DNA of 64,000 nt, taken from IMG/VR virus record IMGVR_UViG_3300009093_000003, positions 10,714 through 74,713 of that record; one strand, written 5' to 3'. The position numbers and the translations under genes were made by a program. Source of the DNA: a virus. The notes under the pieces were generated by a model. It saw only the letters and a program-made list of their open reading frames with translations, did no database searches and had not been told where the DNA came from. Shown piece by piece: positions 58,006-60,831 of the stretch. Numbering within the stretch: the first letter of the stretch is position 1; the number at the start of each line of letters is the position of its first letter.

Positions 58006-58506
58006 TTAATGCTTTTTACTATTAACAGTCGCCTTTACCACTACGTTTTCGGGAAAAGCCTTTATCCTATTGCCATTGAAAAAATAATGCGGATTGAGCC
58101 AGTAATAATCTATTTCGACAGTAATACCTATAAACCGCTTTTTAATCAACTCTTTCAAGGCCGCCTTATAAGTGTTGATAGAACTGATCTTATTTTCGGC
58201 CATGTACCTTTCTTTATTCAAATGCAACCAATCCTTTCCGGGCTTAATTTCATAAATAAGCCACATCAGTAGGTCTTTACCACGCGGGGTAAGTTCTACC
58301 ATGTGCAACCGCCGCGCTGCATCAGCGAACACCTTGCAATACGGCGTTGCCTCATACTCAAAACTGGCCCGTTCATAAATAGCATCCTCACCTGCGTTTT
58401 TATCATGAATTTTATATTTATCAGAAGATTTTACTTCATGGATTAAAACCTCTAAACTTGTAAGAAAAGGGTTTTCTCCCAAATCTTCTCGTTCTTTTTT
58501 ACTCAT
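58006..58506 (-). CDS. RepL-family wHTH replication/regulatory protein (probably leaderless)
   Basis: ALKELIKKRFI...YWLNPHYFFNGNR; TACCTTTG (58510-58517) ends 3 nt before ATG 58506. Confidence 0.8.
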   Translation of the reverse strand: MSKKEREDLGENPFLTSLEVLIHEVKSSDKYKIHDKNAGEDAIYERASFEYEATPYCKVFADAARRLHMVELTPRGKDLLMWLIYEIKPGKDWLHLNKERYMAENKISSINTYKAALKELIKKRFIGITVEIDYYWLNPHYFFNGNRIKAFPENVVVKATVNSKKH

Positions 58507-58530
58507 AAACAAAGGTAGTCAAAAAAATGA

Positions 58531-58540: not shown

Positions 58541-58582
58541 AAATTTTATTTTTATTTTTGGTGAATTATTTTAATCAAAACA

Positions 58583-59665
58583 ATGTGGATAATTCCCTCC
58601 CAACTCAAAACATCCTTTCTTACTGTTCAGGAATCAGAGGAATCGAAACCGGACTTGAACGAAGTGGCCTACCAATTAAAACAGTCGCTTTTTTGGAAAT
58701 CGAAGCCTTTATCGTGGCAAATTTGGTTGCGCAAATGGAAGTCGGTTTATTGGCTCCGGCACCTATTTGGACAAATATTAAAACTTTCGATGCACGACCG
58801 TTTCGTGACCGCATACACGGAATCGTTGGTGGCTATCCGTGTCAGCCATTCAGCCACGCCGGACAACGCAAAGGCATTGACGATGAAAGACACCTTTTCC
58901 CGCATATATTGGAACAGGTTAAAACAATCAGACCGGAATGGGTTTTCTTTGAAAATGTCGCAGGGCATTTATCCATGGGATATGAAGAAGTACGCCGAAG
59001 CCTATCAGATATTGGCTACAGAGTTGAGGAAGGAATCTTTACTGCGCAGGAAGTTGGCGCGCCCCATCGACGAGAGCGGCTCTTTATTCTCGGAATTATG
59101 CAAGACGCCGGTATCGTCGGATGGGGAAGGCGGCGTTTTGCAAATCATAGACAGTTCCAACGCCAAATACAAACTTCGCGACCAGGCACCTCATTGGACA
59201 ACACCTACAGGGAATGCGAACACGGGTGCGTGGCAACCAGCGGCAGGCGGATCGCCAAACCTTCAGTATCAAGTGAAGAATTGGCTAACACCCACTGCGA
59301 TGATACAGGAACAGGATTTACAAATATTCAACATCAGGAAAGAACGGGCGCTGGCGAAGCATATCAATGGGAACGGATGCGGGGAGAACCTTGGCCACTC
59401 AATTCAGAAATGGCCAACACCTGTAGCACACGAAACGAGATTGGGATATCAGGACAGGGAGAATGGCAAGAAAGGCTCACAGGAGAGTTTAACAACCGTT
59501 GTGATAAACACCAGTTTCCCGCAGGTCAAGGAACATATCAGCACCCATGGGAAGAGCCCCGCACTATTGAATCCGGCATGGTCTATACAATTGATGGGTA
59601 CAACTTTACAGAAGACCTTCACCGCGCTATTGGTAATTCGGTTGTGGAGCAAACAGCAGAATTAG
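58583..59665 (+). CDS. overlapping alternative-frame protein: putative specificity/motif-IX subunit of the C5 MTase
   Basis: 360 stop-free codons inside the MTase gene; four (W/C)xTP...L..(Q/S/V) modules; LNPAWSIQLMG motif-IX-like end. Confidence 0.75.
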   Translation: MWIIPSQLKTSFLTVQESEESKPDLNEVAYQLKQSLFWKSKPLSWQIWLRKWKSVYWLRHLFGQILKLSMHDRFVTAYTESLVAIRVSHSATPDNAKALTMKDTFSRIYWNRLKQSDRNGFSLKMSQGIYPWDMKKYAEAYQILATELRKESLLRRKLARPIDESGSLFSELCKTPVSSDGEGGVLQIIDSSNAKYKLRDQAPHWTTPTGNANTGAWQPAAGGSPNLQYQVKNWLTPTAMIQEQDLQIFNIRKERALAKHINGNGCGENLGHSIQKWPTPVAHETRLGYQDRENGKKGSQESLTTVVINTSFPQVKEHISTHGKSPALLNPAWSIQLMGTTLQKTFTALLVIRLWSKQQN

Positions 59666-59700
59666 CTTTCATTTCTTTGATAAAAAAGCAAATTACCTAA
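58585..59700 (+). CDS. DNA (cytosine-5) methyltransferase, catalytic polypeptide lacking motif IX
   Basis: SYCSGIRG (I), FLEIE (II), GGYPCQPFS (IV), FENV (VI), HRRERLF (VIII), AIGNSVV (X); probable GTG start 58585. Confidence 0.9.
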   Translation: MDNSLPTQNILSYCSGIRGIETGLERSGLPIKTVAFLEIEAFIVANLVAQMEVGLLAPAPIWTNIKTFDARPFRDRIHGIVGGYPCQPFSHAGQRKGIDDERHLFPHILEQVKTIRPEWVFFENVAGHLSMGYEEVRRSLSDIGYRVEEGIFTAQEVGAPHRRERLFILGIMQDAGIVGWGRRRFANHRQFQRQIQTSRPGTSLDNTYRECEHGCVATSGRRIAKPSVSSEELANTHCDDTGTGFTNIQHQERTGAGEAYQWERMRGEPWPLNSEMANTCSTRNEIGISGQGEWQERLTGEFNNRCDKHQFPAGQGTYQHPWEEPRTIESGMVYTIDGYNFTEDLHRAIGNSVVEQTAELAFISLIKKQIT

Positions 59701-60530: not shown

Positions 60531-60737
60531 TTACTTCTTAACGACGACAATAGTAAGATCAAGGGCATTGCAGATGTTTATAACCTTAGTTAAACTAATG
60601 CGTTCATTGCGTTTTGATGCTTCAATATTGGAAATGTCGGCTTTGCTTGTTTTGGCCTTTATAGCTAACTGGTTTTGAGATAGGCCGGCTTCTATCCTTG
60701 CTGGCTTAATCAGGTTAATGATTTCATCTGTCTGCAT
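60531..60737 (-). CDS. XRE-family HTH regulator divergent from the early operon
   Basis: RIEAGLSQNQLAIKAKTSKADISNIE; TACTTTTG (60744-60751) ends 6 nt before ATG 60737. Confidence 0.88.
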   Translation of the reverse strand: MQTDEIINLIKPARIEAGLSQNQLAIKAKTSKADISNIEASKRNERISLTKVINICNALDLTIVVVKK

Positions 60738-60831
60738 GGGATACAAAAGTAACAAACTATTTTTGATATATTTATATGTAATTTTATTTAGGTGATTATC
60801 AACAAGTTATAAAATAAATAACAATTAGCTA

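What the first reader, a model, noticed from the sequence alone, without database searches (positions are those of the whole stretch)
58558..59700. C5 DNA methyltransferase encoded as two full-length proteins in overlapping frames from one ATGTG double start
Seen: the MTase frame has motifs I-VIII and X but no motif IX, and its variable region looks like low-information sequence. A second frame stays open for 360 codons over nearly the whole gene. It carries four repeated modules (CKTPVSSD...LRDQ, WTTPTGNA...LQYQV, WLTPTAM...LGHSI, WPTPVAHE...LTTVV) and ends in LNPAWSIQLMG, resembling motif IX (LTPRExARLMG). The two starts are 2 nt apart (ATG 58583, GTG 58585) behind one A-rich initiation region and one TATTTTTG promoter. 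Known: M.EcoHK31I needs a small beta polypeptide carrying motif IX, encoded in an alternative frame inside the alpha gene. Inference: this is a much larger version, with both subunits made from a shared start region. The repeated modules may be multiple target-recognition domains, giving a modular, possibly multispecific anti-restriction enzyme. The Trp/Lys-rich N-terminal ~170 aa of the second protein, overlapping the catalytic core, is unexplained.
Basis: partly seen in the sequence, partly recalled or inferred. Interest (0 to 1): 0.85.

Follow-up and report, generated by a model that had tools for sequence, protein, structure and literature searches.

The report
Two-frame, two-subunit phage cytosine methyltransferase
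One 1.1-kb phage gene is read in two overlapping frames from starts 2 nt apart, probably making the catalytic and DNA-recognition subunits of one DNA cytosine methyltransferase; about 70 related loci keep this layout, but neither protein has been detected.

Summary
Frame A (GTG 58585 to stop 59700) encodes C5-methyltransferase motifs I-VIII, a 140-residue unconserved, disordered linker, then motif X. Frame B (+1; ATG 58583 to stop 59665) is open for 360 codons. It belongs to a large family of its own (2472 cluster representatives; PHROG 1008).

Both frames are fully open from a conserved (A/G)TGTGGAT start in 20 of 22 genome loci and 53 of 64 viral loci. The third frame carries about 20 stops. 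In 39 loci no other start codon is available for frame A. Frame A's synonymous sites are frozen only where B overlaps.

A predicted alpha-beta complex scores 0.85, against 0.01 for controls. B's invariant N-terminus and N-domain sit on the catalytic core. Its LNPAW..QLMG segment sits against motif X. In variant loci B carries motifs IX and X in one frame, which ties B to the enzyme.

The W-x-T-P modules fall into recurring types that are combined differently in almost every protein. Multispecificity is untested.

The closest precedent is M.EcoHK31I (1995), where only a 61-residue motif-IX chain is nested. This scan has noted the same layout on other DNA many times. No protein-level evidence exists.

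The parts
58553..58560 (+). TATTTTTG, a Bacteroidota-type -7 promoter-like box (TAnnTTTG), 23 nt upstream of the ATG
   Evidence: Read from the sequence. Only 1 of 22 related loci has such a box within 90 nt upstream. It is window-specific and untested. The sigma-70 scan found nothing here.
58583..58590 (+). Double start ATGTGGAT: ATG 58583 opens frame B (beta) and GTG 58585 opens frame A (alpha). An A-rich tract lies upstream.
   Evidence: (A/G)TGTGGAT is present in 23 of 23 sequences: 22 genome loci plus the window. ATGTGG is present in 69 of 70 viral loci. No other ATG/GTG/TTG lies between the upstream in-frame stop and this GTG in at least 10 genome loci and 29 viral loci.
58585..59700 (+). 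Frame A, the alpha subunit (371 aa from the GTG; 380 aa if started at TTG 58558)
   Evidence: PF00145 E 1.4e-34. phrog_363 E 1e-45. Open in relatives.
58585..59112 (+). Alpha catalytic core, residues 1-176. Motif I is near 58615-58653, motif IV (GGYPCQPFS) at 58828-58854, motif VI (FENV) at 58948-58959 and motif VIII (QEVGAPHRRERLFILG) at 59047-59094.
   Evidence: Alignment A2 invariant columns. AF2 pLDDT about 85-95. Foldseek top hits are M.HaeIII and M.HhaI. HMM match to M.HhaI motifs IV-VIII.
59113..59532 (+). Alpha linker, residues 177-316. It is unconserved, variable in length and predicted disordered. It is the alternative-frame shadow of beta's modules (ELANT in A corresponds to NWLTP in B).
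   Evidence: pLDDT about 30. Column identity 0.02-0.18. Alignment A2.
59515..59697 (+). Alpha C-terminal conserved block, FPAG..Q..WEEPRT..DGYNF..DL.R..GNSVV plus a helix. Motif X (GNSVV) is at 59632-59646.
   Evidence: Invariant columns P312, Q319, E323, R326, G338, Y339, R347, G350, N351, V353, V354. Helix 342-370 is modelled with high confidence.
58583..59665 (+). Frame B, the beta subunit (360 aa)
   Evidence: 166 relatives, mostly full-length. 2472 cluster representatives at E<=1e-3. Alignment A1 with invariant M1, W2, I3, P5 and L329, P331, W333, L337, G339.
58583..58807 (+). Beta residues 1-75, an N-terminal extension specific to this clade (MWIIP..., Trp/Lys-rich). It overlaps alpha motifs I-II.
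   Evidence: It lies outside the phrog_1008 match, which starts near residue 76. Nested ORFs of other clades start 120-200 nt into alpha. Residues 1-8 are predicted to touch alpha 60-62.
58808..59092 (+). Beta residues 76-170, an N-domain shared with the nested proteins of other phage clades. It overlaps alpha motifs IV-VIII.
   Evidence: phrog_1008 match over residues 77-239. Predicted contacts with the alpha core at beta 74-87, 100-106 and 132-159. Excess of identical codons in A over this stretch.
59099..59434 (+). Beta variable region with four W/C-x-T-P modules, starting at 59099 (CKTP), 59195 (WTTP), 59282 (WLTP) and 59411 (WPTP). This is the candidate target-recognition part.
   Evidence: Positions. 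Module number is 0-7 in 124 relatives. Recurring module types give 111 architectures. The last module, residues 274-285, is predicted to touch alpha.
59567..59599 (+). Beta LNPAWSIQLMG, a motif IX-like segment (residues 329-339)
   Evidence: Invariant or nearly invariant in A1. Nucleotide-level invariance of the overlapping codons. Predicted to pack on alpha 323-356, which includes motif X. In L046-type variants the same segment is followed in frame by motif X.

Best explanation
The gene encodes a heterodimeric C5 DNA methyltransferase whose two subunits are written in two fully overlapping frames of one 1.1-kb stretch.

**Alpha (frame A).** It holds the AdoMet-binding and catalytic core (motifs I-VIII), a disordered linker that exists only to carry the ribosome across beta's coding region, and then the C-terminal block with motif X.

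**Beta (frame B, +1).** It holds an N-terminal domain that clamps onto the catalytic core, a mosaic of W-x-T-P modules that most likely form the DNA-recognition (small) domain, and a motif IX-like segment (LNPAW..QLMG) that packs against alpha's motif X.

**Translation.** Both chains are translated from one mRNA and one A-rich, Shine-Dalgarno-less initiation region. Ribosomes choose either ATG 58583 (beta) or GTG 58585 (alpha).

**Role.** The gene is an orphan methyltransferase. It lies beside the replication module of a phage of a Bacteroidota host and has no nuclease gene next to it.

**Shown and inferred.**
- Shown by comparison: both frames and the start are under selection.
- Inferred: both proteins are made, they bind, both are needed, and beta sets specificity.
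For: **Both frames are kept open.**
- Both are open over 300-450 codons in 20 of 22 usable genome loci at 29-58% beta identity.
- Both are open in 53 of 64 untruncated IMG/VR loci.
- The third frame has about 20 stops per locus.
- Shuffled synonymous codons predict 198 (B) and 280 (A) stops across 21 loci.

**The start is conserved.**
- (A/G)TGTGGAT is invariant.
- Frame A has no other start codon in at least 39 loci.
- Beta's M1, W2, I3 and P5 are invariant, although the alpha residues they overlap lie before motif I.

**Synonymous sites in A are constrained only under B.**
- Where B overlaps, the same codon is used for the same amino acid in 0.587 of cases (0.403 expected) and 0.608 (0.424 expected).
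- In alpha's tail beyond B's stop the values are 0.483 observed and 0.508 expected.
- GGG TAC AAC is nucleotide-invariant over beta's M-G-T-T.

**Conservation is divided between the frames.**
- A is conserved at residues 1-170 and 310-371.
- B is the better-conserved frame in the middle and at LNPAW..QLMG.

**Alpha alone lacks a small domain.**
- The linker is modelled at pLDDT about 30.
- Only the large domain matches M.HaeIII and M.HhaI.

**The predicted complex passes its controls.**
- ipSAE is 0.85; the best of 3 controls is 0.01.
- That mark was reached by 58 of 80 solved complexes and 2 of 110 mismatched pairs.
- The three runs agree in at least 60% of contacts, and partner pLDDT is 59-60.
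- Beta 1-8 touches alpha 60-62. Beta 325-352 touches alpha 323-356.

**Natural variants link beta to the enzyme.**
- In L046, L070, L081 and L090 frame B carries motif IX followed by motif X, and frame A ends early.
- L046 beta aligns to the window's beta at E 3e-44.
- Its C-terminus aligns to the motif X region of a Paenibacillus phage alpha at E 4e-5.
- That C-terminus also hits phrog_363, the alpha-type family.

**The nested +1 ORF exists in other phage clades.**
- It lies inside the methyltransferase genes of Paenibacillus, Lactobacillus, Salmonella and Pseudomonas phages.
- In some Paenibacillus phage records it is annotated as an 'internal gene'.

**Precedent.** M.EcoHK31I and M.AquI are active two-chain C5-MTases (PMC2836561; PMC3404938).
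Against: - There is no protein-level, ribosome-profiling or methylation evidence for this or any related locus.
- No listed sequencing run holding this DNA is on record as RNA.
- Beta has no Pfam family and no sequence match to any solved structure. Calling LNPAW..QLMG 'motif IX' therefore rests on pattern, position, the variant loci and a predicted interface.
- Beta modelled alone is poor, with mean pLDDT 52.7.
- The motif IX-X part of the predicted interface could be recalled from solved single-chain methyltransferases.
- About 8 of 64 viral loci have a stop in one frame. These may be pseudogenes, sequencing errors or other layouts.
- Initiation at a GTG 2 nt after an ATG is unproven. In the window and some relatives alpha could start a few codons upstream.
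Confidence: 0.78

Rival explanations
1. One chain is made by two programmed frameshifts. Ribosomes start in frame A, shift +1 into B after motif VIII to read the modules and motif IX, then shift -1 back into A for motif X. This would rebuild a canonical I-VIII/TRD/IX/X enzyme.
For: The order of motifs along the DNA (A, then B, then A) matches the canonical order in single-chain C5-MTases. Two database proteins (P0110, P0122) read A and then B.
Against: - This model needs neither B's first 170 codons nor A's 140-codon linker to be open. Both are open in about 73 loci.
- B's extreme N-terminus is invariant.
- No conserved slippery sequence lies at the A-to-B junction. Codons there vary freely at synonymous sites.
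- P0110 and P0122 switch frame before motif VI and so lack ENV and motif VIII. P0122's B part is identical to P0040. They look like indel variants.
Confidence: 0.04
2. Frame B is a real, selected protein but not a methyltransferase subunit. It would be, for example, a regulator or an anti-defence protein overprinted on a methyltransferase gene that works alone.
For: Beta has no Pfam family and no solved relative. Its N-half has no counterpart in canonical C5-MTases.
Against: - Alpha lacks any folded or conserved region between motifs VIII and X. It therefore has no evident DNA-recognition domain.
- Beta is only ever found inside this kind of methyltransferase gene.
- In variant loci beta carries motif X itself.
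- The predicted complex scores 0.85, against 0.01 for the best control.
Confidence: 0.1
3. Only a shorter beta is made, from an internal start (as in Paenibacillus phages, where the nested ORF begins about 200 nt into alpha). On this reading, the openness of B's first ~75 codons and the ATGTG arrangement are incidental.
For: In other clades beta starts 120-200 nt inside alpha. The phrog_1008 match begins near residue 76.
Against: - M1, W2, I3 and P5, and W38, W57, L61, L66 and K67, are invariant in 44 sequences.
- ATGTGG is present in 69 of 70 viral loci.
- Residues 1-8 give the most confident predicted contacts with alpha's conserved APIW.
Confidence: 0.06
4. The second open frame is a chance or compositional artefact, or an assembly error.
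For: None beyond the prior rarity of long same-strand overlaps.
Against: Synonymous shuffles predict 9-13 stops per locus. The third frame has about 20 stops. The layout recurs in independent assemblies from isolates, MAGs and viral contigs.
Confidence: 0.01

Closest known systems
M.EcoHK31I (E. coli HK31, YGGCCR; Lee, Kam and Shaw 1995, as described in PMC2836561 and PMC3404938)
   Same: It is a C5-MTase made of two polypeptides. The second chain is encoded in another reading frame inside the gene of the first. [quoted passage not shown] Both are needed for activity.
   Different: The target-recognition domain is in alpha.
- Here beta (360 aa) is as long as alpha and overlaps it from the first codon.
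- Here beta carries the whole variable region plus an extra N-terminal domain. Alpha's variable region is a disordered spacer.
- The shared ATGTG start has no counterpart described for M.EcoHK31I.
- I could not read the 1995 paper, so the frame offset and sequence relation were not compared.
M.AquI (CYCGRG; Karreman and de Waard 1990, as described in PMC3404938)
   Same: It is a two-chain C5-MTase split within the variable region. The variant loci L046, L070, L081 and L090 have the same division of motifs: alpha I-VIII, and beta with IX and X.
   Different: In the window's clade motif X stays in alpha. [quoted passage not shown] No fully overlapping frames or N-terminal beta domain are described for it.
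PHROG 1008 ('DNA methyltransferase') and the annotated 'internal gene' of Paenibacillus larvae phages (e.g. Diva gp50, Bloom gp57)
   Same: It is the same beta family: window beta scores E 4.6e-9 and Paenibacillus beta E 6e-72. The ORF is nested in the +1 frame inside a 32%-identical C5-MTase gene. It has W-x-T-P modules and LNPDWVECLMGFPIGWTD.
   Different: - There the nested ORF starts about 200 nt into alpha, stops about 150 nt before alpha's end, and has the full LMGFPxGWT ending.
- The window's clade adds 75 N-terminal residues and the double start.
- The two phage papers I read list two methyltransferase genes without comment.
Multispecific Bacillus phage C5-MTases (SPR, phi3T, rho11s; from my own knowledge, not checked here)
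   Same: They are phage-borne orphan C5-MTases with a variable region built of several tandem units that differ between relatives.
   Different: Those enzymes are single chains in which each unit recognises a separate target. Here the units share a W-x-T-P signature and lie on a separate subunit. Nothing shows that each recognises its own site.

Membership tests
C5 DNA methyltransferase (PF00145) | Motifs I, IV (PCQ), VI (ENV) and VIII of the large catalytic domain | tested here: met
   Alpha scores PF00145 E 1.4e-34. Invariant G16/G19, P85-C86, E123-N124-V125 and R163/R165. The fold matches M.HaeIII and M.HhaI.
C5 DNA methyltransferase (PF00145) | Target-recognition domain and motif IX in the same chain, between motifs VIII and X | tested here: not met
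   Alpha residues 177-316 are unconserved and disordered. Solved enzymes match only up to about position 178. The candidate equivalents lie in frame B.
C5 DNA methyltransferase (PF00145) | Motif X (GN.V) C-terminal helix | tested here: met
   Alpha G350, N351, V353 and V354 are invariant. Helix 342-370 is modelled with high confidence.
M.EcoHK31I-type nested heterodimer | The second chain is encoded in another frame inside the first chain's gene | tested here: met
M.EcoHK31I-type nested heterodimer | The second chain supplies motif IX | tested here: inconclusive
   LNPAW..QLMG fits the motif IX pattern. It is followed in frame by motif X in variant loci. It is predicted to pack on alpha's motif X. 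No profile or structure match supports this.
M.EcoHK31I-type nested heterodimer | The large chain holds the target-recognition domain | tested here: not met
   Alpha's variable region is a disordered spacer.
M.EcoHK31I-type nested heterodimer | Both chains are required for methylation | not testable with these tools
   This needs expression and methylation assays.
M.AquI-type split (alpha I-VIII; beta IX-X) | Motif X lies on the second chain | tested here: not met
   In the window motif X is in frame A. The feature is met in relatives L046, L070, L081 and L090.
PHROG 1008 (nested beta proteins of phage C5-MTases) | Profile match | tested here: met
   Window beta scores E 4.6e-9 over residues 77-239. 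Relatives score 2e-21 to 6e-72.
Multispecific phage C5-MTases | Several independent target-recognition units, each with its own target | not testable with these tools
   Module number (0-7) and module types vary. Target sites are unknown.

The most novel reading that the evidence does not exclude
The family is a natural combinatorial specificity system. Beta's W-x-T-P modules are exchangeable DNA-reading units: at least 10 recurring types, one copy of each per protein, and 111 architectures in 124 proteins. Swapping, adding or losing them would re-target or broaden the methyltransferase, while a constant alpha, made from the same ATGTG start, supplies the chemistry. Every module change must also stay stop-free in alpha's frame. 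If so, this would be one of the longest conserved same-strand dual-coding genes known. It would also be a second, independent way, besides SPR-type enzymes, for phages to build multi-target anti-restriction methylases.
Probability: 0.2. Interest if true: 0.88.

Novelty: new variant of a known kind. Interest (0 to 1): 0.74.

Why it matters
- **Overlap length.** Same-strand overlaps of more than 1 kb in which both products are conserved are very rare outside small viruses. Here two proteins of about 360 aa share every nucleotide and even their initiation site.
- **Annotation.** Gene callers keep only one of the two frames. One subunit is therefore missing from most annotations, and the 'hypothetical' frame-B proteins (thousands of clusters) are unexplained.
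- **Enzymology.** Cloning the annotated methyltransferase ORF with recoded codons would silently destroy the second subunit.
- **Translation.** The conserved ATGTG in Shine-Dalgarno-less Bacteroidota offers a natural test of how start codons 2 nt apart are partitioned.
- **Specificity.** The module mosaic gives a tractable system for how C5-MTase specificity evolves under a double coding constraint.

Tried and rejected
I used the search for related loci instead.
- The single-sequence viral scan found nothing. The profile scan found 71 loci.
- tblastn of beta's C-half against phage records found nothing. The Paenibacillus beta was needed as a bridge.
- Beta had no Pfam hit, and the variant betas carrying motif X had none either.
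- The beta profile against PDB sequences gave nothing at E<=10.
- The beta monomer model is poor (pLDDT 52.7), so I ran no fold search on it.
- The ESM Atlas gave only low-TM rows.
- A search for longer fused forms found one 885-aa protein without Pfam domains, so no single-chain fusion was found.
- No RNA holder is listed for this DNA. The only full holder is a rhizosphere metagenome that may be the source.
- The sigma-70 and terminator scans were uninformative.
- Literature searches found no paper describing this family's layout. The 1995 M.EcoHK31I paper is not held.
- I considered that LMG followed by YNF could mark a -1 shift that joins motifs IX and X. I rejected this because alpha's NGYNFR.DLLR..GNGVV aligns to NRVGRIKALGNAV of Paenibacillus alpha, where no overlap exists.
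Full report
**1. What is in the window**

Between 58558 and 59700 on the + strand, two ORFs overlap almost completely.
- Frame A runs to the stop at 59700. Its possible starts are TTG 58558, GTG 58561 and GTG 58585.
- Frame B is shifted +1. It runs from ATG 58583 to the stop at 59665 and is 360 aa.
- The ATG and the GTG at 58585 share one G, giving ATGTG.
- The third frame has 22 stops over the same span.

Frame A is a C5 DNA methyltransferase: PF00145 E 1.4e-34 and phrog_363 E 1e-45. Frame B has no Pfam family. It hits phrog_1008, which is annotated 'DNA methyltransferase', over residues 77-239.

The surroundings are phage genes:
- a replication module on the minus strand (primase/helicase, DnaD-like loader, RNase H);
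- an HTH regulator;
- tail-fibre-like genes.

No nuclease gene lies next to the methyltransferase. The only sequencing run holding the whole stretch is a rhizosphere metagenome.

**2. Frame B is a protein family of its own**
- A word-seeded search found 166 relatives, mostly covering 94-100% of the query at 30-65% identity. All are 'hypothetical'.
- An exhaustive HMMER search of 1.84 billion cluster representatives found 2472 at E<=1e-3 and 117 at E<=1e-30.
- In an alignment of 44 members, the N-terminus M-W-I-x-P, several Trp and Leu residues in the N-half, and L-N-P-A-W-x-x-Q-L-M-G-T-T near the C-terminus are invariant or nearly so. The middle varies in length and is punctuated by W-x-T-P.

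**3. Both frames and the double start are conserved**

A profile scan of one genome per species gave 23 loci. Nearly all are from Bacteroidota: Mucilaginibacter, Dyadobacter, Chitinophaga, Aquimarina, Tenacibaculum, Saprospiraceae and Cyclobacteriaceae.
- In 20 of the 22 loci I could use, both frames are open from the start to within 5-83 nt of each other's stops, over 280-400 codons. The third frame has about 20 stops in each.
- A scan of IMG/VR gave 71 more loci. Of 64 that are not cut by a contig end, 53 have both frames open with PCQ, ENV and GN.V in A. The third frame averages 20.7 stops.
- The start context (A/G)TGTGGAT is present in all 23 sequences of the first set. ATGTGG is present in 69 of 70 loci of the second.
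- In at least 10 genome loci and 29 viral loci there is no ATG, GTG or TTG in frame A between the upstream in-frame stop and this GTG. In L007 a single non-start sense codon (AAT) separates the stop from the GTG. In those loci alpha must start at the GTG of ATGTG.
- The 25 nt upstream are A-rich, and only two loci have a Shine-Dalgarno-like GGAGG. This fits what I recall of Bacteroidota initiation; I did not check a paper.
If it is a promoter, it excludes the two upstream start candidates in the window.

**4. Selection acts on both frames**
- Permuting synonymous codons of A within each gene predicts 198 stops in B across 21 loci (minimum 174). None is observed inside B.
- The reverse test predicts 280 stops in A. 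One is observed.
- Between pairs with at most 55% alpha identity, positions with the same alpha residue use the same codon more often than regional codon usage predicts:

| Region of alpha | Observed | Expected |
|---|---|---|
| Residues 1-170 (overlapped by B) | 0.587 | 0.403 |
| Residues 310-358 (overlapped by B) | 0.608 | 0.424 |
| Tail beyond B's stop | 0.483 | 0.508 |

- The tail is an internal control and shows no excess.
- Over beta's M-G-T-T, alpha's codons GGG TAC AAC are identical in 20-21 of 21 loci.
- Per-region identity shows how the constraint is divided. Alpha is conserved at residues 1-170 and 310-371. At residues 181-300 its identity is 0.02-0.18. Beta's identity is 0.34-0.57 in its N-half, peaks at the modules, and reaches 0.62 at LNPAW..QLMG.

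**5. What each chain looks like**

Alpha:
- Modelled with 21 sequences, it has a confident catalytic core (residues 1-176, pLDDT about 85-95).
- It has a disordered stretch (177-316, pLDDT about 30) and a confident C-terminal helix (342-370).
- Foldseek places the core on M.HaeIII, M.HhaI and DNMT2. Only about 175-180 columns align, and TM normalised by target length is about 0.43-0.45, so the small domain is missing.
- A profile of alpha matches solved enzymes only up to about position 178.
- The recurring ELAN(T/S) in alpha's linker is the shadow of beta's N-W-x-T-P.

Beta modelled alone is poor (mean pLDDT 52.7). It shows some helices in the N-half.

**6. Do they bind?**

The complex prediction supports binding but does not show it.
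- Score 0.85; best of 3 controls 0.01.
- That mark was reached by 58 of 80 solved complexes and 2 of 110 mismatched pairs. These counts hold only roughly, because I supplied my own alignments.
- The three runs agree in at least 60% of contacts. Partner pLDDT is 59-60.

The contacts are informative:
- Beta residues 1-8 (the invariant MWIIP) touch alpha 44, 48 and 60-62 (the conserved A-P-I-W).
- Beta 34-40, 54-64, 74-87, 100-106 and 132-159 touch alpha 39-78 and 146-164.
- The last module (beta 274-285) and beta 325-352 (LNPAW..QLMG) touch alpha 311-356, which includes motif X.

The motif IX-X part could be recalled from single-chain structures. The N-domain interface has no solved counterpart that I know of.

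**7. Natural variants tie beta to the enzyme**
- In IMG/VR loci L046, L070, L081 and L090, frame B does not stop after LMG. It runs on through ...LMG.P.GWT... into N-R-x-D-x-x-R-x-L-G-N-G-V-V-P-Q, which is motif X. Frame A ends early without motif X.
- L046's frame-B protein aligns to the window's beta over residues 1-310 (E 3e-44).
- It aligns to the Paenibacillus nested protein (E 9e-14).
- Its last 40 residues align to the motif X region of the Paenibacillus alpha (E 4e-5).
- Its C-terminus also hits phrog_363, the family that alpha belongs to.

Motifs IX and X can therefore sit in one chain in the canonical order. That is the M.AquI division of labour (PMC3404938).

**8. Wider distribution**
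- Alpha's best phage matches are Paenibacillus larvae phage methyltransferases (32% identity over 96% of the query). Some of those records annotate a second CDS inside the first, in the +1 frame. In phage Diva it is labelled 'g49 internal gene'.
- That 234-aa protein has W-x-T-P modules and LNPDWVECLMGFPIGWTD.
- Using it as a query, tblastn finds relatives under annotated methyltransferase genes of Lactobacillus, Acinetobacter, Pseudomonas, Salmonella, Burkholderia, Xanthomonas and Erwinia phages.
- In the three I checked, the match lies in the +1 frame of the annotated gene and is not itself annotated.
- There beta starts 120-200 nt into alpha. Only the Bacteroidota-associated clade has the extra 75 N-terminal residues and the shared start.

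**9. The modules**
- Among 124 full-length family members, the number of W-x-T-P motifs ranges from 0 to 7. It correlates with protein length (r = 0.71).
- Clustering 24-residue modules at 50% identity gives at least 10 types that each recur in 12-26 proteins. Each type occurs once per protein. There are 111 different architectures in 124 proteins. The window's is types 1, unclustered, 2, 4.
- This confirms modularity. It says nothing about whether each module reads its own target.

**10. Rivals**
- A frameshifted single chain would not need B's first 170 codons or A's linker to be open. It also has no conserved slippery site.
- The two database chimeras lose motifs VI-VIII and look like indel variants.
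- A beta unrelated to methylation is hard to square with sections 5-7.
- Chance is excluded by section 4.
- A shorter beta made from an internal start conflicts with the invariant N-terminus and its predicted contact.

**11. Relation to what is known**
- M.EcoHK31I is the precedent for a second chain nested in another frame. There beta carries only motif IX, and the recognition domain stays in alpha (PMC2836561; PMC3404938).
- The two P. larvae phage papers I read list two cytosine methyltransferase genes without comment.
- Six literature searches found no description of this family's layout.
- Earlier notes of this scan describe the same layout on other DNA in at least 178 genomes. I reached my reading before seeing them, and I re-tested the shared claims here.

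**12. Limits**
- Nothing here shows that either protein is made, that they bind, or what sequence is methylated.
- About 8 of 64 viral loci have one frame interrupted: L035, L060, L074 and L099, plus the four variant loci.

Noticed in passing
L046:1501-2637, L070:1501-2487, L081:94-1062, L090:1501-2640: A variant layout. Frame B carries motif IX and then motif X in one frame, and frame A stops early without motif X. This is an M.AquI-like split within the same family.
   Followed up: yes
L099:1503-2927: Frame A is interrupted inside the linker. Motifs I-VIII (188 aa) and the motif X block (115 aa) are separate open stretches, while frame B (448 aa) is intact. It may be a three-piece form or a pseudogene.
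   Followed up: no
L035, L060, L074 (IMG/VR loci): There are single in-frame stops: in one of the two frames in L035 and L074, and in both frames in L060. These may be decaying copies or sequencing errors.
   Followed up: no
P0110, P0122 (database proteins): These chimeric predicted proteins read frame A through motif IV and then frame B. P0122's B part is identical to P0040. They are likely 1-nt indel variants or errors.
   Followed up: partly
window 59591-59605 and the equivalent in 20 loci: The 15-nt string A(A/G)T GGG TAC AAC TTT is almost invariant at nucleotide level across loci whose proteins are only 40-60% identical. It lies where beta M-G-T-T overlaps alpha (N/D)-G-Y-N-F.
   Followed up: partly
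window 58006-58512 (-): This is a 168-aa ORF transcribed divergently from the methyltransferase gene. It has no PHROG match. The 45-nt gap between the two genes holds the promoter-like box.
   Followed up: no
window 60531-60755 (-): This is a small HTH (Xre/repressor-like) regulator downstream of the methyltransferase, separated from it by about 800 nt with no ORF of 60 aa or more.
   Followed up: no
L012:640-662 and L003:2985-3000: Two relatives have a Shine-Dalgarno-like GGAGG just upstream of the double start. All other loci have only A-rich leaders.
   Followed up: no
P0229 (885 aa, JGI): This is the only long protein matching the beta profile (E 3e-43, 33% of the query). It has no Pfam domains and may be a fusion with something else.
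   Followed up: no
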